Positions 27,361 to 40,396 of a stretch of DNA of 64,000 nt are shown in pieces (positions within the stretch are counted from its first letter, which is position 1; each line of letters begins with the position of its first letter). The stretch lies in the sequence record PX418213.1; one strand, 5' to 3'. Made by a program: the position numbers and the translations under genes. Below the pieces are notes generated by a model. It saw only the letters and a list, made by a program, of their open reading frames with translations. It had not been told where the DNA came from and made no database searches. Source of the DNA: a phage.

Positions 27361-27447
27361 TGGTGCTGGGCACAGGATTCGAACCTGCAATGGGATTACT
27401 CCTCCTGATTACAAATCAGGTGCATTCAACCATTCTGCCAACCCAGC
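27361..27447 (-). tRNA. tRNA with long extra arm, anticodon TGT (Thr-type) in arm CCTGA-TTTGTAA-TCAGG
   Basis: 87 nt; acceptor GCTGGGT/GCCCAGC; T-arm GCAGG-TTCGAAT-CCTGT; class-II-like length unusual for Thr. Confidence 0.5.
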
Positions 27448-29223: not shown

Positions 29224-29313
29224 TGGCAGAAGATAATGGAGTCGAACCATCACCGTATCGCTACAGCGGGCTGGTTTTCAAGACCAGTTACGTACCACTA
29301 CGTCCTATCTTCT
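29224..29313 (-). tRNA. tRNA-Ser (TGA)
   Basis: 90 nt with long variable arm; anticodon arm CTGGT-CTTGAAA-ACCAG. Confidence 0.7.
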
Positions 29314-29326
29314 AGTATTTATTATA

Positions 29327-29674
29327 CTAATAGTCACTCGTACTAGTGAAGTTTTCTACTTTTCCACAAATTTTACAAGTCCTACGATGGTAGTAGGTAA
29401 TTTTTACTTTAGACCAGCCATCGTGATCATTACCTAGGTTTTCTGTTACTCCCCAAGTATGAGAACACTCATTTTCAATTTGCTTAGTAAGAGCGTTATA
29501 GCGAGTATAAAACTCCTCCTGAGCAATAGCAAACTCTTTCTGTAGTTTATCACGAGCAATAATAGCACGTTCCAGATATGTTAAATCTGGCATTCCAGCT
29601 TTTTCAGCAGCATCTATAATCTTATCTTCATCTAAAGATGCTAAAAACTCTAGAGCTTTATCTTTTGCTAACAT
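29327..29674 (-). CDS. hypothetical protein with C-terminal Cys pairs
   Basis: 115-aa ORF; ...CSHTWG...RRTCKICGK. Confidence 0.5.
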   Translation of the reverse strand: MLAKDKALEFLASLDEDKIIDAAEKAGMPDLTYLERAIIARDKLQKEFAIAQEEFYTRYNALTKQIENECSHTWGVTENLGNDHDGWSKVKITYYHRRTCKICGKVENFTSTSDY

Positions 29675-29693
29675 TATTATTACCTCAAGTGTT

Positions 29694-29784
29694 TGGCGGA
29701 AGAGGAGAGATTTGAACTCTCAAGCCGTTTTACCAGTCAGCCACTTTCCAAGCGGTTTTCGTCGCCAATTCGATTTGCTCTTCC
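29694..29784 (-). tRNA. tRNA-Ser (GGA), tentative
   Basis: 91 nt; acceptor GGAAGAG/CTCTTCC; T-arm GAGAG-TTCAAAT-CTCTC; long variable arm. Confidence 0.55.
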
Positions 29785-29804
29785 AATAATAAGATGATGC
29801 CTCT

Positions 29805-29893
29805 ATCACACCAGGCTGTTATGCCTCGCTGGGATTCGAACCCATTAAAACAGCTCAACCGAGATAGTAGGTTTAATTTACTCTGACCATCAA
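29805..29893 (-). ncRNA. degenerate tRNA-like element
   Basis: T-loop GGGTTCGAATCCC at 29831-29843 but no complementary acceptor strand or encoded CCA. Confidence 0.3.
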
Positions 29894-29896
29894 ATT

Positions 29897-29973
29897 TGGT
29901 GCGTGACAAGGGATTCGAACCCTCAAAACCCGACTTCTAAGGACGGTATGTATGCCAATTCCATCAATCACGC
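29897..29973 (-). tRNA. atypical tRNA, anticodon TAG (Leu codon) but class-I length
   Basis: 77 nt; acceptor GCGTGAT/GTCACGC; D-loop GAATTGG (Leu-like); loop CTTAGAA; no long variable arm. Confidence 0.45.
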
Positions 29974-29978
29974 GTATT

Positions 29979-30057
29979 TGGTGGAGAATAACGGAATCGA
30001 ACCGTTCTGATGTCCTCGGTGCAAGCGAGGTGTCCACTCCATGCAGACCCATTCCCC
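29979..30057 (-). tRNA. tRNA-Ala (TGC)
   Basis: G3:U70 pair in acceptor (GGGGAAT/ATTCTCC); anticodon arm CCTCG-CTTGCAC-CGAGG. Confidence 0.7.
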
Positions 30058-30295
30058 AAATTCTTTAGTTTACTAAGGCTATTAGCTCGGCGCAACTACA
30101 GCACCTTCGCTTCGAGCGGAAGGAACTGCGTCATCTCGCAAACCCAATACACTATTCAGTTGCCGCTGAATCTAGTGGACTAATCTAGAACTTCTCCCGA
30201 ATCGTAGGGATCGTGCTTTTTGGCAGCCAGTCCTAGGTCGAGCTAATACCTTAGTGAACTATGATGAGGATTTCTCCTCATCAATTTATATAAAT
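30058..30295 (-). ncRNA. structured leader / candidate ncRNA at 5' end of tRNA transcript
   Basis: no ORF; long-range complement AGGCTATTAGCTCG (30076-30089) with CGAGCTAATACCT (30239-30251); local hairpins. Confidence 0.35.
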
Positions 30296-30324
30296 ATTAT
30301 AACAAGAAATTAAGCATCAAGCAA
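30296..30324 (-). promoter_or_regulatory. T5-type promoter driving tRNA cluster segment
   Basis: TTGCTT, 17 bp, TATAAT; overlaps 3' end of CDS 30317-30685. Confidence 0.55.
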
Positions 30325-30685
30325 GTACATTTTTAGCGATTTCTTGCAGTTCCTTTACATCACGAACGTAAAGGTAATCAGAGCTTCCAGAGTGCATACT
30401 TTGCATAACTACACCTTCATCTGGTGCATTATCCTTCAGAGTAATTCCTAACCAGAACTCGGCAAAACTAGGTGTTATCTCACCTTGACTTGCCTTGAAT
30501 ACATCATATTCTGTAAGTTCTTGACCAGTAGATAATCCCAAATAGACAGAACTAAGATCTATCTCTTTATGAGACTCATAAAACTCCGTTAGATCTTTCT
30601 CCATATCCCAACCATGCTGTAACGCGAACTCCATTGCCACATGACTGAAATAACCTTGAATCTTGCTTGATAATTGCATTTGCAA
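30317..30685 (-). CDS. hypothetical protein
   Basis: 122-aa ORF starting with TTG. Confidence 0.5.
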   Translation of the reverse strand: MQMQLSSKIQGYFSHVAMEFALQHGWDMEKDLTEFYESHKEIDLSSVYLGLSTGQELTEYDVFKASQGEITPSFAEFWLGITLKDNAPDEGVVMQSMHSGSSDYLYVRDVKELQEIAKNVLA

Positions 30686-30704
30686 TTCCTTATTTTGAGT
30701 TAAT

Positions 30705-30778
30705 TGGTACTCGGTGATAGAATCGAACTATCGCAATCGCCGTGTAAAGACGGGGTTCTCCCATTAAACTAACCGAGC
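30705..30778 (-). tRNA. tRNA-Val (TAC), tentative
   Basis: acceptor GCTCGGT/ACCGAGT; T-arm GATAG-TTCGATT-CTATC; loop TTTACAC. Confidence 0.5.
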
Positions 30779-30782
30779 AATT

Positions 30783-30861
30783 TGGTAGATCGCCTGGGAC
30801 TCGAACCCAGAACCTTCCGATTAAAAGTCGGATGCTACTAAACCTATTGAGCTAGCGATCT
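30783..30861 (-). tRNA. tRNA-Lys (TTT)
   Basis: anticodon arm TCCGA-CTTTTAA-TCGGA; acceptor AGATCGC/GCGATCT. Confidence 0.7.
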
Positions 30862-30862
30862 A

Positions 30863-31030
30863 TTAGTAACCATTGTATACTTCTTTAATAGAGTGAATTT
30901 TCAAGTAAGGGTGATTAGTATTAAACTCTGCCATTACTTCATCCCAATTTTTACCGTAATGAGCGAGTAAGGATTTTGATGTATTCTTACCTAAACGTTT
31001 GTCACTTACTACTAATCGAAATACTTTCAT
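30863..31030 (-). CDS. small hypothetical protein (55 aa)
   Basis: hand-translated MKVFRLVVSDKRLGKN...; AGAGGA RBS. Confidence 0.4.
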   Translation of the reverse strand: MKVFRLVVSDKRLGKNTSKSLLAHYGKNWDEVMAEFNTNHPYLKIHSIKEVYNGY

Positions 31031-31050
31031 TTCGAAATCCTCTATTAAAA

Positions 31051-31128
31051 TGGAAGCGGGTGCAGGAATCGAACCTACCTCTTTCTAGCTTATGAGACTA
31101 GTGATCTCTACCAGAGATCTAACCCGCA
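31051..31128 (-). tRNA. tRNA, anticodon CAT (Met/fMet/Ile2)
   Basis: anticodon arm CTAGT-CTCATAA-GCTAG; T-arm GTAGG-TTCGATT-CCTGC; irregular acceptor end. Confidence 0.55.
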
Positions 31129-31134
31129 ATTGTT

Positions 31135-31212
31135 TGGTCTCCGTGGGAGGATTTGAACCCCCGACCCTATCGCCCCAAACGAAACGCTCTGGCCAAACTG
31201 AGCTACACGGAG
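31135..31212 (-). tRNA. tRNA-Pro (TGG)
   Basis: acceptor CTCCGTG/CACGGAG; D-arm GCTCAGTTTGGCCAGAGC; loop TTTGGGG. Confidence 0.6.
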
Positions 31213-31216
31213 AATA

Positions 31217-31375
31217 TTATTTCTTCAACCACAACAAAGATAAGCCCAACATACTAAAGCCGCTAACTAATCCGATACATTTTTCTTCTATAGTAAAAGT
31301 ATCTAGATTAAATGCTGTTATAGCTATTGGCATACACCATAATGCCATAAAAACTTGAGCTATCTTGTGTTTCAT
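31217..31375 (-). CDS. small membrane protein (52 aa)
   Basis: hand-translated MKHKIAQVFMALWCMPIAITAF...; GAAGGAAAG RBS; promoter directly upstream. Confidence 0.4.
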   Translation of the reverse strand: MKHKIAQVFMALWCMPIAITAFNLDTFTIEEKCIGLVSGFSMLGLSLLWLKK

Positions 31376-31407
31376 TTTGCTTTCCTTCTCTTCACTTTAT
31401 AAGATAT

Positions 31408-31436
31408 ATTATACAGAGAATTAAGCAGAATAGCAA
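31408..31436 (-). promoter_or_regulatory. T5-type strong sigma70 promoter
   Basis: TTGCTA, 17 bp, TATAAT. Confidence 0.6.
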
Positions 31437-31439
31437 ATG

Positions 31440-31828
31440 AATTTTTAATAAATTTACTTATTGTGTAGGCCACCTGGAGGCTACCAACCCCACGGCTGAC
31501 AAAGAAGTTTGCGAGACCTCTCTTAAATGCCAGAATAGACCCGCCGATCTATCGGAACCTACATAATAAGTAAACTTTATAGTGTCATTCTAGACAGGAC
31601 TCGAACCTGTTATCACTTGTGCGGACTTACGAGAACCATTCTTTCACTCGAATCGAACGAGCTTCTGCCCTAGCCAAGCTGGTTTCCCCATCAACCACGC
31701 TAGAATGTTTGATTGTTTTCAGTGCAAGAGTCCGAGTCTTGGACACGACCGCTTCGCAAGTACATAGGCAGCTTATCATGAGTCAGCACTTCCGAATTGC
31801 TAGCTCCGTGTTCTGCACTGAAATTTTG
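31440..31828 (-). ncRNA. structured non-coding region with tRNA-like elements
   Basis: no ORF; D-arm-like TGGTT-GATGGGGA-AACCA; two T-arm-like hairpins (CTCG-TTCGATT-CGAG and ACAGG-TTCGAGT-CCTGT); ATTCTAG/CTAGAAT complement about 120 nt apart; separate stem TTCAGTGCA/TGCACTGAA (31719-31727 with 31812-31820). Confidence 0.35.
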
Positions 31829-32176
31829 TTAATTTAATAGTAAAGTACGATCTACTTCACCATTAATTGTTCGGCACTCTTCTGGGATTGCTGGTGTAGC
31901 CTTATATTCCCACCATTCAGAACCGTCGTATTCACCACGTTCTAACCAAGTTCCGTCAGTAAACCATACATTACCATAAAGCAATTGCCCACCGAAACCC
32001 GAGTCATATTTAAAGTCTAGATTATTTAGAAAATCTTCAATATCTTTTTCTGTATAACCTACGGGCAATACCCAAACTTCTTTGTCTCCATAATAACCGA
32101 ATTCTATCTTAATACACTTAACTTCAGAATTAGTATTCTTTAGGGCAAGTAACAACTCTTCTTTAGCATTAATCAT
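31829..32176 (-). CDS. hypothetical protein
   Basis: 115-aa ORF. Confidence 0.5.
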   Translation of the reverse strand: MINAKEELLLALKNTNSEVKCIKIEFGYYGDKEVWVLPVGYTEKDIEDFLNNLDFKYDSGFGGQLLYGNVWFTDGTWLERGEYDGSEWWEYKATPAIPEECRTINGEVDRTLLLN

Positions 32177-32202
32177 AGCATATTTCTCGTGCTAGTTTAA
32201 TT

Positions 32203-32278
32203 TGGTACACCCACTAGGACTTGAACCTAGAACCCTCCGCTTAAGAGGCGGTAGCTCTAACCATTGAGCTATGGATGT
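32203..32278 (-). tRNA. tRNA, anticodon CTT (Lys-type), tentative
   Basis: acceptor ACATCCA/TGGGTGT; D-arm GCTCAATGGTTAGAGC; loop CTCTTAA. Confidence 0.5.
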
Positions 32279-32279
32279 A

Positions 32280-32438
32280 TTAAATTACTTTTTCCAGTTC
32301 ATCAGCTATGGCTTTGATTTTTTCAAAGTTTACATCACTTATAATGATACCTTCCAGTGACAGAGATATTCTAGCATTTTTCATAGCAGATTCTTTTATC
32401 TGCTCTATCTCTTCTGGAGTAAACTCCCTACGTTCCAT
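32280..32438 (-). CDS. small hypothetical protein (52 aa)
   Basis: hand-translated MERREFTPEEIEQIKESAMKNARISL...; AAGGTAGG RBS. Confidence 0.4.
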   Translation of the reverse strand: MERREFTPEEIEQIKESAMKNARISLSLEGIIISDVNFEKIKAIADELEKVI

Positions 32439-32455
32439 AGCTAACCTACCTTATT

Positions 32456-32532
32456 TGGCGCGACCGATGGGATTCGAACCCACATTCCCTCCCGTGACAG
32501 GGGAGTACCATTACCAAGCCAGCCCCGGTCGC
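32456..32532 (-). tRNA. tRNA-Asp (GTC)
   Basis: acceptor GCGACCG/CGGTCGC; anticodon arm CTCCC-CTGTCAC-GGGAG. Confidence 0.75.
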
Positions 32533-32541
32533 ATAATTCAT

Positions 32542-32727
32542 TTACTCAGCTTTGAGTTTTTCAATAGCTGCATTAAGTTCCTTAAGAAACTCTTTTCGTA
32601 CATTAAGACGATTAAGACTTACTAGTATATCATGTTTAAGTTCTTCGATGTATTTCTTCTCAACTTCAATATTGTTGAGAGTGCTATCACGATGAACCTC
32701 TAGCTGCGCAATTACATTCTTGGACAT
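32542..32727 (-). CDS. small coiled-coil protein
   Basis: 61-aa ORF. Confidence 0.4.
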   Translation of the reverse strand: MSKNVIAQLEVHRDSTLNNIEVEKKYIEELKHDILVSLNRLNVRKEFLKELNAAIEKLKAE

Positions 32728-32829
32728 GCTTGTTTCCTCAGTTATTAATGAAAATGGTATCTGTGGCTGAATTCGATGTCAGCAATGATAGCTGGTTGGC
32801 TACCGGTTTACTTAACTCTACACAGAATT

Positions 32830-32912
32830 TGGCGGGCCGTGTAGGATTCGAACCTACGTTGTCTTTCGACATGGATTAACAGTCCACCGCCAAACCGCTT
32901 GGCTAACGACCC
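32830..32912 (-). tRNA. tRNA, anticodon GTT (Asn-type) with 13-nt extra arm
   Basis: 83 nt; acceptor GGGTCGT/ACGGCCC; anticodon arm GTGGA-CTGTTAA-TCCAT; variable GTCGAAAGACAAC. Confidence 0.55.
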
Positions 32913-33064
32913 TAAATTTATATTGCTGACTAGGATTTTCACCTAGACGGAGTTAGCACCGTAGCGTGTAGCGGCATACCTCTCCAAACCGTGCCTCATC
33001 TTTCAATTACGGAGACAGTGTTCCTACGCGTGCCTGAATTGATTTAACAATTCTTTCAGCAAAT

Positions 33065-33140
33065 TGGACGACCGCATGAGATTTGAACTCACATAAAAAG
33101 GATTTGCAATCCTTCGCCTAAGCCATTCAGCCAACGGTCG
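33065..33140 (-). tRNA. tRNA-Cys (GCA)
   Basis: anticodon arm AAGGA-TTGCAAA-TCCTT; acceptor CGACCGT/GCGGTCG. Confidence 0.7.
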
Positions 33141-33188
33141 ATTTATCTTGTTCTGTCATGTTGCTTCTCCAGTTCAATTTATGTAATT

Positions 33189-33217
33189 ATTATACAGAAC
33201 TTTTGGAAACTAAGCAA
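33189..33217 (-). promoter_or_regulatory. T5-type promoter upstream of tRNA-Cys
   Basis: TTGCTT, 17 bp, TATAAT. Confidence 0.6.
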
Positions 33218-33497
33218 CTACATTTTTTAAGAATTTGATGCCTTTCTTTTTCTTCTTATATTTCCACGTTAATGGATTCTGTCGATTATGAACGCTTGAG
33301 ATCTTCGTCTCGTCAAAGTTCTTCAATATCATGTAATCACAAGATAATTGTTCTAGTGGAATGTGATCACCGTCAAAAGCGTATACATAGGGCTGTTGAC
33401 TAGCACGATAATGATAGACTTTGTTAATTCTACGTTTCAGCGACTTATCCGCGCAGTAAATAAAGAAGTTTTCAGGATGCATCAGCAGCTCCTTCAA
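33210..33497 (-). CDS. hypothetical protein
   Basis: 95-aa ORF. Confidence 0.5.
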   Translation of the reverse strand: MKELLMHPENFFIYCADKSLKRRINKVYHYRASQQPYVYAFDGDHIPLEQLSCDYMILKNFDETKISSVHNRQNPLTWKYKKKKKGIKFLKNVVA

Positions 33498-33499
33498 TT

Positions 33500-33574
33500 T
33501 GGTGCACCCTGTTCGTATCGAACGAACCTCTCAAGCTCTTCAGGCAAGCGCTAATCCATCTCAGCTAAAGGTGC
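33500..33574 (-). tRNA. tRNA, anticodon ambiguous (GAA-Phe or CTG)
   Basis: acceptor GCACCTT/AGGGTGC; T-arm GTTCG-TTCGATA-CGAAC; anticodon stem irregular. Confidence 0.45.
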
Positions 33575-33580
33575 AAATTT

Positions 33581-33660
33581 TGGCAAACCTACTAGGACTC
33601 GAACCTAGACCGTACGGTTTTGGAGACCGACATGCTGTCCAGTAACACTCTAGGAATGCA
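33581..33660 (-). ncRNA. tRNA-like element with mismatched acceptor
   Basis: T-arm CTAGG-TTCGAGT-CCTAG, variable hairpin ACCGTACGGT, 3' TAGGTTT-G-CCA; 5' strand pairs at only 5 of 7 positions. Confidence 0.35.
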
Positions 33661-33665
33661 GGAAT

Positions 33666-33742
33666 TGGCGTCCTGTGCGGGGGTCGAACCCGCAAATCCT
33701 ACCTTGAAAGGGTAGTGACTTTACCAGTTTGTCTAACAGGAC
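33666..33742 (-). tRNA. tRNA-Glu (TTC)
   Basis: acceptor GTCCTGT/ACAGGAC; anticodon arm CTACC-CTTTCAA-GGTAG. Confidence 0.75.
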
Positions 33743-33748
33743 TTAAAT

Positions 33749-33835
33749 TGGTGGGGAAAGATGGAGTCGAACCACCCGAGTCGCAATGACAACTGATTTA
33801 CAGTCAGCTCTGCTACCACTTACAGAATATTTCCC
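33749..33835 (-). tRNA. tRNA-Tyr (GTA)
   Basis: long-arm tRNA; acceptor GGGGAAA/TTTCCCC; anticodon arm GCTGA-CTGTAAA-TCAGT. Confidence 0.7.
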
Positions 33836-33967
33836 CATATTTAGAAGTATTCAAAAAATTCTAATTTAAACACTTTTAAATATGTTTCCAAATTAGGTAA
33901 CTATTATACCAAGTTTTAAGGCACTGAGCAAGTCAAATTTTAAAGAACTTGCTCAGTGCTGTATTGG

Positions 33968-34243
33968 TTAGTCGAACTTAGGAGTGACAGTTAAGGAGAA
34001 TGGAAGTTCGAAAACTTCTTCACCCTCATTACTAACAGTAATTACACGACCTTTAAGTTCAGACATTGAAATATCAATATCAGCTTTTGCATCCGGAGCC
34101 ATGCCAGCTTCAACACATTTAGCTTTAATTTCCGGCAGAAGTTCTACATCATAGAAATAAAGCCATTCAATCTCACCTTCCCAGCCTTCCCAGGATTTAC
34201 AGATTGCACTTTCAATACCAGCTGCTATAACACGATTTTGCAT
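33968..34243 (-). CDS. hypothetical protein
   Basis: 91-aa ORF. Confidence 0.5.
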   Translation of the reverse strand: MQNRVIAAGIESAICKSWEGWEGEIEWLYFYDVELLPEIKAKCVEAGMAPDAKADIDISMSELKGRVITVSNEGEEVFELPFSLTVTPKFD

Positions 34244-34273
34244 TCATTAACTCCTTCATCAATTTATATAACT

Positions 34274-34303
34274 ATTATATCAGAAATTTAAAGCAAAAGG
34301 CAA
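34274..34303 (-). promoter_or_regulatory. T5-type sigma70 promoter
   Basis: TTGCCT, 18 bp, TATAAT. Confidence 0.5.
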
Positions 34304-34333
34304 GTACATTTTTAAAAATTCTGTTTGGAGGAG

Positions 34334-34540
34334 CTAAACTCCAGATTCTTCAGCCAAGTCTAGGCTAATAAGAGATATAGCCATAATTGCCGCTCCATGT
34401 TCTTTTTCTCCAGTCTCTTTAGCTAGAGTTATAATGTCAAGAAATTGCTTATGAAAATCTGCAACCTCTTGAGTTATACCTGCCTCAGCAATCATGCCTT
34501 TAAGCATAAAACGTTGTGCAGTAATTTCAGGATTAGCCAT
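34334..34540 (-). CDS. hypothetical protein
   Basis: 68-aa ORF. Confidence 0.45.
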   Translation of the reverse strand: MANPEITAQRFMLKGMIAEAGITQEVADFHKQFLDIITLAKETGEKEHGAAIMAISLISLDLAEESGV

Positions 34541-34700
34541 GTTGTTTCTCCAGTTTCATCTTTAATAGTCTACAAATAAAATCAATGTCTTCATCCGTGC
34601 CTAGATCTCTGTCTTCAAGAGTTGCCTTGAAGTTTTTAGTCAATTCCATGAGGATAACTTCCCTAGAACGACGTGTTGGCGGAGGTGGATGTCTATACAT
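34533..34700 (-). CDS. small hypothetical protein (55 aa)
   Basis: hand-translated MYRHPPPPTRRSREV...; AAGGAAA RBS; stop overlaps next start. Confidence 0.4.
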   Translation of the reverse strand: MYRHPPPPTRRSREVILMELTKNFKATLEDRDLGTDEDIDFICRLLKMKLEKQHG

Positions 34701-34715
34701 CTTATTTCCTTAATT

Positions 34716-34792
34716 TGGTAGGGGTGGTGGGATTCGAACCCACAAAACCTGAATTTTAAGTCCAGTACCTATGCCAATTCGATTACACCCCC
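34716..34792 (-). tRNA. atypical tRNA, anticodon TAA (Leu codon) but class-I length
   Basis: 77 nt; acceptor GGGGGTG/CACCCCT; D-loop GAATTGG; anticodon arm CTGGA-CTTAAAA-TTCAG; no long variable arm. Confidence 0.5.
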
Positions 34793-34893
34793 ATGTAATC
34801 AGTTTATTAGTTGATACATATTATAGCCTAGTGAAAATCCTACTACTAGTCCCACAAACCAACCAATATAATAATCTTTTAGTTTCACAGGTA

Positions 34894-35079
34894 TTATCCT
34901 CTTTCAATATCTAGAGAAATACCACAGTTAGGATTAATACCTGTACCCTTGCAATTTGGGCAAATCCATATATTGCAAAAAGTATCTCCTGCTTCTGCAT
35001 CAGAACTTTCACCAATTCCCCTACACTCAGGGCAGGCGCATTCTTCTAGCTCTTGCTTGAGTTCTTGAAACTTGGACAT
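34894..35079 (-). CDS. small zinc-ribbon-like protein
   Basis: 61 aa; CPECRG...CPNCKG. Confidence 0.5.
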   Translation of the reverse strand: MSKFQELKQELEECACPECRGIGESSDAEAGDTFCNIWICPNCKGTGINPNCGISLDIERG

Positions 35080-35088
35080 ATAGTCTCC

Positions 35089-35277
35089 TTAGTTAATTAC
35101 TTTTGAGGCTTCTAAAGCATTAACGTAGTAAACATCTTCTACATTATACATATAGTCTACTACTTTGTCCATAGCATGGAGTTCGGATGTAGCCTTTACT
35201 AGTCTGTACCCTTGTTTAAACTCGTCCGAACGTTCTCTATCTTGTGCAAATTTAACAGAAACTATGAATAATTCCAT
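35089..35277 (-). CDS. hypothetical protein
   Basis: 62-aa ORF. Confidence 0.45.
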   Translation of the reverse strand: MELFIVSVKFAQDRERSDEFKQGYRLVKATSELHAMDKVVDYMYNVEDVYYVNALEASKVIN

Positions 35278-35296
35278 TAATTGTCCTTATTTAATT

Positions 35297-35374
35297 TGGT
35301 GGCTCCCCGAGGATTCGAACCTACGTACCTTCCGGTTATGAGCCGGGTGCTCATACCATATGAGCTTGAGAACC
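35297..35374 (-). tRNA. tRNA, anticodon CAT (Met/Ile2)
   Basis: acceptor GGTTCTC/GGGAGCC with G-U pairs; loop CTCATAA; T-stem has mismatches. Confidence 0.5.
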
Positions 35375-39599: not shown

Positions 39600-40396
39600 T
39601 CTAAGTATTTTTAAGAATTCTCATAAAAACTCTTAAAAATACAGACGATACCGGGAGAGTCATAAGTCTCACTCATTAAGTATTTCAAGACAAAATACGG
39701 TAACGTCTATTATTTTCCAGTTTAAGTCAGGGTGACTTAGTGGTTATGTCCTGCGGTATATTGAGGACTCGGTTAGGCTTGGGGTCATGACTTCCCACCT
39801 TTTGCTGCTACTCAACAGGAGTTATCGCGAATTACCTGTGCTATTGTGCACCATTAGTGACATCTCTCATGTCAGCATTTCCCACTTTGTGGATAGCTTG
39901 AAAAACTACTCCGATATGGAGAAAGAACTTCACTATCCTAGAATACCTTCTAAAGTTCTTCTTTAGCCTGGACATAGTTAAATCGTAATAAAACTATTCA
40001 GCAGACTGGTTGGTTAGTCTGGAACCAACTACCGCGTGGTTTAGGCAGTGCGCAACTAACCTCGGAAGCTTTTACGTTAAAAGCACCAGTTATCCAGTTC
40101 TTACCGACCGTAGGATTCGAACCTACATCTTCCACCAGTTACGACTTGATAATACCAATTATACTAGGACGGCAGTGTTACTACATAAGTGATTTCCACA
40201 CCCCACTATTTATAAATTAGAGAAGAGTTTAGGGGAGAGGTTTCAGACGCCTCATTTTACACGTTCTAGCCACTAACCGGGATTGCCGCCCCCTGTGTAC
40301 TAGTTTTACAACTAACCCACCGACTCTATTCAATGCGCTCCGCTTGGGATTCTGCACTCAGCGTAATCGGCTCGCTGTTCCCTAATTTATGAATAT
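39600..40396 (-). ncRNA. about 800-nt non-coding transcribed region with degenerate tRNA-like element
   Basis: no ORF of 60 aa or more; lies between promoter 40397-40425 and gene 39084-39584; T-loop GGTTCGAATCC at 40113-40123 with imperfect acceptor. Confidence 0.3.

What the first reader, a model, noticed from the sequence alone, without database searches (positions are those of the whole stretch)
29897..34792. Two tRNAs with leucine-codon anticodons (TAG, TAA) but class-I architecture
tRNAs at 29897-29973 and 34716-34792 are 77 nt with good acceptor and T-arms and a Leu-like GAATTGG D-loop, but they lack the long variable arm that bacterial tRNA-Leu needs. Their anticodon loops read CTTAGAA and CTTAAAA. 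They could be non-canonical Leu isoacceptors, or tRNAs charged with a different amino acid that would recode UUA/CUA.
Basis: seen in the sequence. Interest (0 to 1): 0.6.

Follow-up and report, generated by a model that had tools for sequence, protein, structure and literature searches.

The report
Phage leucine tRNAs lacking the extra arm
This T5-like phage carries two real leucine tRNA genes that lack the long extra arm normally found on bacterial leucine tRNAs but keep every feature the host charging enzyme is known to need, so they most likely just supply leucine for two codons the phage overuses and do not change the genetic code.

Summary
ARAGORN and Rfam call tRNA genes at 29897-29973 and 34716-34792 (minus strand). 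Each is 77 nt with an encoded CCA, a 5-nt variable loop (GUUUU), and anticodons UAG and UAA. The window is a T5-like phage.

The recoding idea is not supported. In 43 orthologs shared with phage T5, the window's UUA and CUA codons align with leucine 96.2% and 95.2% of the time, like the other four Leu codons, and they interchange with those codons.

Both tRNAs keep the published E. coli LeuRS identity set: A73, U8-A14, A15-U48, G18G19, A20a and a 3-bp D-stem. Their D-arm lines up without gaps with host leuZ and leuW; only the extra arm is missing. That arm is reported not to be an identity element.

The best reading is functional armless Leu isoacceptors, charged by host LeuRS, for CUA and UUA. 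These are the Leu codons most enriched in the phage relative to E. coli.

The architecture is widespread. The genes are near-identical in hundreds of T5-like phages, occur in at least five other phage lineages with strong covariation, and match at least 120 viral contigs and many Actinomycetota genomes. Charging is inferred, not shown. Why the arm was lost is unknown; evasion of defence nucleases that cut variable arms is an untested possibility.

The parts
29897..29973 (-). tRNA-Leu(UAG), class-I architecture, 77 nt including encoded CCA
   Evidence: ARAGORN; Rfam RF00005 47.5 bits with full-length alignment; at least 95% identical in about 162 phage records, where annotated as tRNA-Leu.
29937..29939 (-). 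Anticodon UAG (loop CUUAGAA; A37, not the G37 of host leuW)
   Evidence: Sequence read; covariance alignment; comparison with leuW in alignment A4.
29925..29929 (-). 5-nt variable loop GUUUU ending in U48
   Evidence: alignment. U48 is invariant in 14 phage homologs and in the host tRNALeu genes.
29947..29964 (-). Leu-type D-arm: 3-bp stem (A10-U25, U11-A24, G12-C23), G13/A22 unpaired, loop A14 A15 U16 U17 G18 G19 C20 A20a U21
   Evidence: Hand-fold of the sequence. Collinear without gaps with E. coli leuZ/leuW and T5 Leu85. All three D-stem pairs show compensatory changes.
29900..29900 (-). Discriminator A73
   Evidence: Invariant in 14/14 phage homologs, 122/122 viral-contig matches and 117/118 bacterial matches.
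34716..34792 (-). tRNA-Leu(UAA), class-I architecture, 77 nt including encoded CCA; G1-U72 wobble as in host leuZ
   Evidence: ARAGORN; Rfam 57.4 bits; at least 95% identical in about 325 phage records; G1-U72 seen and in leuZ in alignment A4.
34756..34758 (-). Anticodon UAA (loop CUUAAAA, with the A36-A37-A38 motif also present in host leuZ)
34744..34748 (-). 5-nt variable loop GUUUU ending in U48
   Evidence: alignment.
34766..34783 (-). Leu-type D-arm: A10-U25, U11-G24, C12-G23, G13/A22 unpaired, loop AAUUGGCAU
   Evidence: Hand-fold of the sequence.

Best explanation
These are two functional phage-encoded leucine isoacceptors, tRNALeu(UAG) for CUA (and probably other CUN codons) and tRNALeu(UAA) for UUA/UUG. 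They derive from ordinary class-II tRNALeu by loss of the extra arm. During infection the host LeuRS charges them with leucine, because E. coli-type LeuRS reads A73 and the tertiary core (U8-A14, A15-U48, G18G19-T-loop, A20a, D-loop geometry) and reads neither the anticodon nor the extra arm. They raise decoding capacity for the two Leu codons that this AT-rich phage uses far more than its host does. Shown here: the genes, the fold, its conservation and covariation, the presence of the identity elements, and the Leu meaning of the codons. Inferred: charging by LeuRS, expression, and the benefit to the phage.
For: 1. They are real tRNAs with class-I geometry.
2. Fourteen homologs from T5-like, Vequintavirinae, Ounavirinae, Schitoviridae, Lahexavirus and other Demerecviridae phages support the cloverleaf: 97.9% of cells pair against 42-52% in slid controls, and 16 of 20 pairs show compensatory changes. 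G1, U8, A14, G18, G19, A20a, A22, U33, U34, A35, A37, U48, A73 and CCA are invariant.
3. [quoted passage not shown] All of these are present.
4. The D-arm aligns without gaps to E. coli leuZ/leuW and T5 Leu85. The only architectural difference is an 8-10 nt deletion in the variable region. No other class-I tRNA in the window has this D-arm.
5. In another bacterial LeuRS, deleting the arm mainly lowers affinity, while deleting U48 abolishes charging (PMC2377443).
6. Codon test: UUA aligns with Leu 151/157 times and CUA 119/125 times in T5 orthologs, and substitutions go to other Leu codons.
7. Codon demand: CUA is 17.8% of phage Leu codons against 4.2% in the host sample, and UUA 21.4% against 10.2%.
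8. In at least 120 viral contigs, features the search pattern did not constrain agree: A73 in 122/122, A15 in 118/122, no G3-U70.
Against: No aminoacylation or expression data exist for these alleles. The one published test of E. coli LeuRS on a natural bacterial type-I tRNALeu (S. coelicolor CAA) was negative, and its authors describe EcLeuRS as charging only type II (PMC6614811). However, that tRNA has C48, not U48. Loss of the arm probably costs binding affinity. Leu(UAG) has a U30-U40 mismatch in the anticodon stem. Single-sequence MFE folding does not recover the cloverleaf (z = -1.4 and -1.2). The T5 tRNA-rich region is dispensable in the laboratory (PMC11555353), so any benefit is conditional.
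Confidence: 0.8

Rival explanations
1. Counter-defence design: the extra arm was lost, and the armless alleles spread, because some host defence nuclease cuts the variable arm of class-II tRNAs. An armless tRNALeu would still be charged by LeuRS but would escape cleavage and keep Leu decoding going. This concerns why the architecture exists and is compatible with the best explanation.
For: There is precedent in the same phage group. Retron-Eco7 and Septu PtuAB cleave host tRNATyr inside the variable loop, and the T5-like SP15 tRNATyr resists because of its distinctive variable loop (PMC13096335 and PMC12673091). T5-like tRNA regions carry proven anti-defence tRNAs (PMC11555353). Armless Leu alleles are commoner than the long-arm T5 allele: about 162 against about 52 records. 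The alleles swap at one syntenic slot next to homing-endonuclease genes. The same window also carries an altered-arm tRNA-Thr.
Against: None of the papers read describes a nuclease that targets the tRNALeu variable arm. Armless tRNALeu also occurs as lone genes in many Actinomycetota genomes, where a phage counter-defence role is not obvious. Neutral loss of a dispensable arm explains the data equally well.
Confidence: 0.17
2. Sense-codon recoding: the class-I body is charged by a synthetase other than LeuRS, so CUA and/or UUA are read as another amino acid in phage proteins.
For: Only the unusual architecture, and the published statement that EcLeuRS did not charge one natural type-I tRNALeu.
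Against: CUA and UUA align with Leu in T5 orthologs at 95-96%, like the other Leu codons (92.6-98.6%), and they exchange freely with CUG, UUG and CUU. T5 itself has a long-arm Leu(UAG) and no Leu(UAA) gene. The host class-II tRNALeu(UAG) and tRNALeu(UAA) genes exist and would presumably compete, making any recoding ambiguous. G3-U70 is absent, as are the long arm and G73. The anticodons UAG and UAA are not the anticodons that, from general knowledge of tRNA identity, anticodon-reading synthetases require. A73, A15 and U48 are conserved.
Confidence: 0.02
3. Non-translational or defunct RNAs: the genes are decaying tRNALeu pseudogenes, or tRNA-like decoys or processing signals that are not used in decoding.
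For: T5 is annotated with several tRNA-like stable RNAs of unknown function in the same region. The tRNA-rich region is dispensable in the laboratory. Leu(UAG) has a U-U mismatch in its anticodon stem.
Against: The genes are near-identical in hundreds of genomes. Compensatory changes occur in all four helices across distant lineages, and the anticodon loop, A73 and encoded CCA are invariant. The anticodons match the two Leu codons most enriched in the phage. A pseudogene would not show this pattern.
Confidence: 0.04

Closest known systems
E. coli class-II tRNALeu (leuZ UAA, leuW UAG)
   Same: Same anticodons. Same discriminator A73, U8-A14, A15-U48, G18G19, A20a, 3-bp D-stem with 13/22 unpaired and the same D-loop length. 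The UAA species shares the G1-U72 wobble and the A36-A37-A38 motif.
   Different: The extra arm is missing: 5 nt instead of 13-15 nt. Leu(UAG) has A37 where leuW has G37. T-loop position 57 is G rather than A. There is no detectable DNA similarity to any of 5,426 E. coli genomes.
Phage T5 tRNAL1(UAG), 85 nt (NC_005859 31624-31708)
   Same: Same syntenic slot immediately downstream of tRNA-Ala(UGC) in the tRNA-rich region. Same anticodon, A37, A73 and Leu-type D-arm.
   Different: T5's gene has a 13-nt variable region and is only about 66% identical. The window's two Leu genes resemble each other more (71%). T5 has no Leu(UAA) gene.
Type-I tRNALeu(CAA) of Streptomyces coelicolor (PMC6614811)
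   Same: A bacterial-system tRNALeu with a 5-nt variable loop that coexists with class-II tRNALeu and a single LeuRS.
   Different: Its variable loop ends in C48, its cognate LeuRS does not use A73, and EcLeuRS did not charge it. The window tRNAs carry the E. coli-type set (A73, A15-U48) and must work with enterobacterial LeuRS.
Animal mitochondrial tRNALeu(UUR)/(CUN)
   Same: Class-I tRNALeu whose identity rests on A73 and A14, without a long arm.
   Different: Mitochondrial tRNAs have degenerate cores and a dedicated mitochondrial LeuRS. The phage tRNAs have a canonical elbow (G18G19, T-loop UUCGAAU).
Nuclease-resistant phage tRNAs (T5/SP15 tRNATyr against PtuAB)
   Same: A T5-like phage tRNA of a class-II isotype whose variable region differs from the host's.
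   Different: For tRNATyr the arm is lengthened or changed, and resistance has been shown experimentally. For tRNALeu the arm is deleted, and no nuclease or resistance phenotype is known.

Membership tests
tRNA (Rfam RF00005) | Score above the gathering threshold (29 bits) with a full-length cloverleaf alignment | tested here: met
   47.5 and 57.4 bits, model positions 1-71 of 71.
tRNA (Rfam RF00005) | Helices supported by compensatory substitutions in homologs | tested here: met
   16 of 20 pairs have changes on both sides; 97.9% paired against 42-52% in slid controls.
E. coli-type tRNALeu (LeuRS substrate) | Discriminator A73 | tested here: met
   A73 in both genes. Invariant in 14/14, 122/122 and 117/118 homologs.
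E. coli-type tRNALeu (LeuRS substrate) | A15-U48 Levitt pair and U8-A14 | tested here: met
   A14, A15, U8 and U48 are present in both genes. U48 and A14 are invariant and A15 is 13/14 in alignment A3. The identity role is cited from PMC9976931.
E. coli-type tRNALeu (LeuRS substrate) | G18G19 placement, A20a, and a 3-bp D-stem with 13/22 unpaired (Leu-type D-arm geometry) | tested here: met
   Gap-free alignment of the D-arm with leuZ, leuW and T5 Leu85.
E. coli-type tRNALeu (LeuRS substrate) | Long (class-II) variable arm | tested here: not met
   5-nt variable loop. The arm is characteristic of bacterial tRNALeu but is reported not to be an identity element.
E. coli-type tRNALeu (LeuRS substrate) | Aminoacylation with leucine by host LeuRS | not testable with these tools
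   Requires an in vitro charging assay or charge-sensitive tRNA-seq.
Type-I (short-variable-loop) tRNALeu | Leu anticodon on a tRNA with a 4-5 nt variable loop | tested here: met
Type-I (short-variable-loop) tRNALeu | Sequence relationship to the characterised S. coelicolor tRNALeu(CAA) | not tested
   That sequence was not retrieved. The paper gives its variable loop as ACAGC, which differs from GUUUU.
Sense-codon-reassigning tRNA | Cognate codons occupy positions of a different amino acid in orthologs | tested here: not met
   UUA aligns with Leu at 96.2% and CUA at 95.2% in T5 orthologs; substitutions go to other Leu codons.
Sense-codon-reassigning tRNA | Identity elements of a non-cognate synthetase (for example G3-U70 for AlaRS, or long arm plus G73 for SerRS) | tested here: not met
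   G3-C70 in both genes. No G3-U70 in 122 viral homologs. A73 and a short loop throughout.
Nuclease-evading phage counter-defence tRNA | A host nuclease that cleaves the host cognate tRNA, and resistance of the phage version | not testable with these tools
   There is precedent only for tRNATyr and tRNALys. Nothing was found for tRNALeu.

The most novel reading that the evidence does not exclude
Armless tRNALeu is an anti-defence adaptation. Some bacterial immune nuclease, PtuAB/Septu-like or still undiscovered, disables translation by cutting the extra arm of class-II tRNALeu. Phages across many families have repeatedly fixed or exchanged tRNALeu genes that keep the LeuRS identity core but present no arm to cut. 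The long-arm Thr and Trp tRNAs in the same clusters could be the converse: decoys or competitors for such nucleases.
Probability: 0.15. Interest if true: 0.7.

Novelty: new member of a known kind. Interest (0 to 1): 0.4.

Why it matters
Textbooks, and the one biochemical paper on the subject (PMC6614811), treat bacterial tRNALeu as almost always class II and describe E. coli LeuRS as charging only type-II tRNALeu. If these phage tRNAs are charged in E. coli and Salmonella, as their identity elements predict, they are a natural and very abundant confirmation that the extra arm is dispensable for enterobacterial LeuRS. Type-I tRNALeu would then be common in phages, tRNA arrays and Actinomycetota rather than a curiosity. 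They would also offer a compact natural Leu scaffold for tRNA engineering. Finally, they give a concrete way to ask whether variable-arm remodelling in phage tRNAs, already shown for tRNATyr, is a general counter-defence strategy. For genome annotation, the practical message is that these genes are correctly called tRNA-Leu and do not signal an altered genetic code.

Tried and rejected
1. Single-sequence MFE folding did not reproduce the cloverleaf for either gene (z = -1.4 and -1.2). This is uninformative for tRNAs, so covariance-model and comparative evidence were used instead.
2. Whole-molecule pairwise identity to other tRNAs does not discriminate origin, with values of 61-71% for many isotypes. 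Only the D-arm layout is diagnostic.
3. blastn against 5,426 E. coli genomes found no match, so there is no host or prophage source at that sensitivity.
4. Promoter and terminator scans gave counts near the shuffled expectation and were not used.
5. The primary papers on T5 tRNA charging (PMC283332) and on minimalist tRNALeu (PMC115294) are not held. The corresponding statements rest on the review and the table.
6. Six literature searches found no description of class-I tRNALeu in phages. This is absence from a partial library, not proof of novelty.
7. Recoding was considered and rejected on the codon-alignment test.
8. A phage-encoded LeuRS was considered. None is annotated in the homologous 50 kb of T5. 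The window's own ORFs were not scanned for synthetase domains.


Full report
**1. Observation**

ARAGORN finds 24 tRNA genes in the window, all on the minus strand between 26362 and 39075. They include tRNA-Leu(tag) at 29897-29973 and tRNA-Leu(taa) at 34716-34792, each 77 nt. Rfam's tRNA covariance model scores them 47.5 and 57.4 bits against a threshold of 29.

The model's alignment shows a full cloverleaf with only five nucleotides (GUUUU) between the anticodon stem and the T stem. The anticodon loops are CUUAGAA and CUUAAAA. The 77 nt include an encoded CCA.

My own fold of the sequences gives:
- A 7-bp acceptor stem, with U7-G66 in the UAG species and G1-U72 in the UAA species.
- A 3-bp D-stem with G13 and A22 unpaired.
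- The D-loop A14 A15 U16 U17 G18 G19 C20 A20a U21.
- A 5-bp anticodon stem, with a U30-U40 mismatch in the UAG species.
- U48, a 5-bp T stem, the T-loop UUCGAAU, and A73.

A geometry-constrained pattern matches exactly these two sites in the window, with none expected by chance.

**2. Genome context**

The region is 94-97% identical to T5-like phages of Salmonella and Escherichia (Demerecviridae).

In reference T5 (NC_005859), the syntenic gene immediately downstream of tRNA-Ala(UGC) is tRNAL1(UAG). It is 85 nt long with a 13-nt variable region. T5 has no Leu(UAA) gene. The T5 gene is only about 66% identical to the window gene, whereas the window's two Leu genes are 71% identical to each other.

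Allele counts in the phage collection, at 95% identity or more:
- 77-nt Leu(UAG): about 162 records.
- T5-type 85-nt allele: about 52 records.
- 77-nt Leu(UAA): about 325 records.

Where these records are annotated, nearly all call the genes tRNA-Leu.

Homing-endonuclease genes flank these slots in T5: hegC beside Leu(UAG), and hegA where the window has Leu(UAA). This fits allele exchange within a mosaic tRNA-rich region. No similar sequence exists in 5,426 complete E. coli genomes.

**3. Breadth and structural conservation**

Diverged 77-78-nt Leu(UAG/UAA) genes occur in several other phage groups:
- Vequintavirinae (PVP-SE1 and a Klebsiella phage).
- Ounavirinae (FelixO1-like).
- Schitoviridae (Pseudomonas ZC03).
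- Lahexavirus.
- Other Demerecviridae genera infecting Vibrio, Aeromonas and Proteus.

On an alignment of 14 such genes, the class-I cloverleaf pairs in 97.9% of cells, against 42-52% when partners are slid. Sixteen of 20 pairs show changes on both sides, including all pairs of the 3-bp D-stem and of the anticodon stem. G1, U8, A14, G18, G19, A20a, A22, U33, U34, A35, A37, U48, A73 and CCA are invariant.

All 125 matches are called tRNA-Leu at 73-78 nt. Among 122 unique sequences, features the pattern did not constrain agree: A73 in 122/122, A15 in 118/122, and no G3-U70.

There the anticodon is UAA in 105 and UAG in 13, and A73 is present in 117/118. Ninety-four of 120 are lone tRNA genes, and about 16 lie in dense tRNA arrays that also hold short Leu genes with other anticodons.

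**4. Which synthetase?**

[quoted passage not shown] Both window tRNAs have every one of these elements. Aligned with host leuZ and leuW, the D-arm is collinear without a gap, and the only architectural difference is an 8-10-nt deletion of the extra arm. No other class-I tRNA in the window has this D-arm.

For Aquifex LeuRS, removing the arm 'resulted mainly in affinity decreases', whereas deleting U48 abolished charging (PMC2377443).

The counter-example is that EcLeuRS did not charge the S. coelicolor type-I tRNALeu(CAA) (PMC6614811). That tRNA has C48 rather than U48, so the result does not transfer directly. The same paper notes that EcLeuRS contacts the G1-U72 pair of host tRNALeu(UAA). 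The window's UAA species shares that wobble.

Other synthetases are unlikely. G3-U70 (AlaRS) is absent, as are the long arm and G73 (SerRS). From general knowledge of tRNA identity, UAG and UAA are not anticodons that the anticodon-reading synthetases accept.

**5. Recoding test**

I aligned 43 ortholog pairs between the window and T5 (8,610 codons, mean 91% amino-acid identity). The window's UUA codons face Leu in 151 of 157 cases and its CUA codons in 119 of 125. This matches UUG, CUU, CUC and CUG (92.6-98.6%) and Leu overall (95.4%). Where the codon differs, it is usually another Leu codon: UUA faces CUA 21 times, UUG 15 and CUG 7, and CUA faces UUA 16 times and CUG 15. There is no sign of another meaning.

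**6. Why the phage has them**

CUA makes up 17.8% of the phage's Leu codons (14.9 per 1000) and UUA 21.4% (18.0 per 1000). In 41 E. coli K-12 genes the figures are 4.2% (4.1 per 1000) and 10.2% (10.2 per 1000). These are the two Leu codons most enriched in the phage relative to the host, and they are the ones the two anticodons read. Supplying decoders for over-used codons is the conventional role of phage tRNAs.

**7. Why armless?**

This is not settled. The simplest view is that a dispensable arm was lost and the deletion was tolerated.

A more interesting possibility has precedent in T5-like phages. PtuAB of Retron-Eco7 and Septu cleave host tRNATyr within its variable loop, and the phage tRNATyr resists through a different variable loop (PMC13096335, PMC12673091, PMC11555353). 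None of the papers I read reports a nuclease acting on the tRNALeu arm, so I give this reading a probability of about 0.15-0.2.

**8. Known or new?**

Type-I tRNALeu is known from mitochondria and from S. coelicolor. In GenBank records where these phage genes are annotated, they are already labelled tRNA-Leu. Six full-text searches found no paper that describes class-I tRNALeu in phages, but the library is partial.

I classify the finding as a new member of a known kind. It is genuine and mildly surprising, and it is widespread. It gives no evidence for an altered genetic code.

Noticed in passing
window 27361-27447 (-): The gene called tRNA-Thr(UGU) is 87 nt. It has an 11-12-nt insertion forming an extra arm in the variable region, a 3-bp D-stem, A73, G1-C72, C2-G71 and G35-U36 (Rfam 58.9 bits). 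T5 has an ordinary 75-nt tRNA-Thr at the same slot. The 87-nt allele is at least 95% identical in about 98 T5-like phages. The same long-arm scaffold carries Thr(UGU) in Aeromonas phage AsFcp_1 (L255 151-235) and Trp(CCA) with G73 in Erwinia phage pEp_SNUABM_01 (L256 142-228). In these phages, therefore, long or short architecture is not tied to isotype.
   Followed up: partly
window 29937-29939 region; alignment A4: All phage Leu(UAG) genes examined, including T5's 85-nt one, have A37 3' of G36. Host leuW has G37. From general knowledge, G37 is the site of TrmD m1G37 methylation, so the phage tRNAs would not be TrmD substrates.
   Followed up: no
window 29897-29973 (tRNA positions 30 and 40); L002, L003: The U30-U40 mismatch in the anticodon stem of Leu(UAG) is shared by T5-like, PVP-SE1 and a Felixounavirus homolog. 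This suggests horizontal spread of one allele between unrelated phage families.
   Followed up: no
window 35300-35374 (-) and 40102-40173 (-): Rfam finds two tRNAs that ARAGORN misses. The first is syntenic with T5 tRNA-Ile2(CAU). The second lies in the region corresponding to T5's stable 'RNAX'. Conversely, ARAGORN's Ser(UGA) at 29224-29313 and Ala(UGC) at 29979-30057 are absent from Rfam's above-threshold list.
   Followed up: no
window 29314-29896 compared with L001 8943-9607; window 34793-35299 compared with L001 14380-15063: The tRNA-rich region is mosaic relative to T5. Between Ser(UGA) and Leu(UAG), T5 has tRNA-Ser2(GGA) plus the HNH endonuclease hegC, where the window has only a 115-aa ORF (29327-29674). 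T5 has the HNH endonuclease hegA near the place where the window has Leu(UAA). The window also lacks T5's tRNA-Gly(UCC).
   Followed up: partly
window 32830-32912 (-), 29979-30057 (-), 30783-30861 (-): Several other tRNAs are longer than usual: Asn 83 nt (78 nt in T5), Ala 79 nt (75 nt in T5) and Lys(UUU) 79 nt (one search compared).
   Followed up: no
loci L135-L254 (bacterial genome contigs): Lone 73-78-nt tRNA-Leu(UAA) genes with A73 and A15 are common in Actinomycetota chromosomes and MAGs. Dense tRNA arrays there also carry short Leu genes with CAA, GAG, CAG and UAG anticodons. Type-I tRNALeu therefore looks much more widespread in bacteria than the single published Streptomyces case suggests.
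   Followed up: partly
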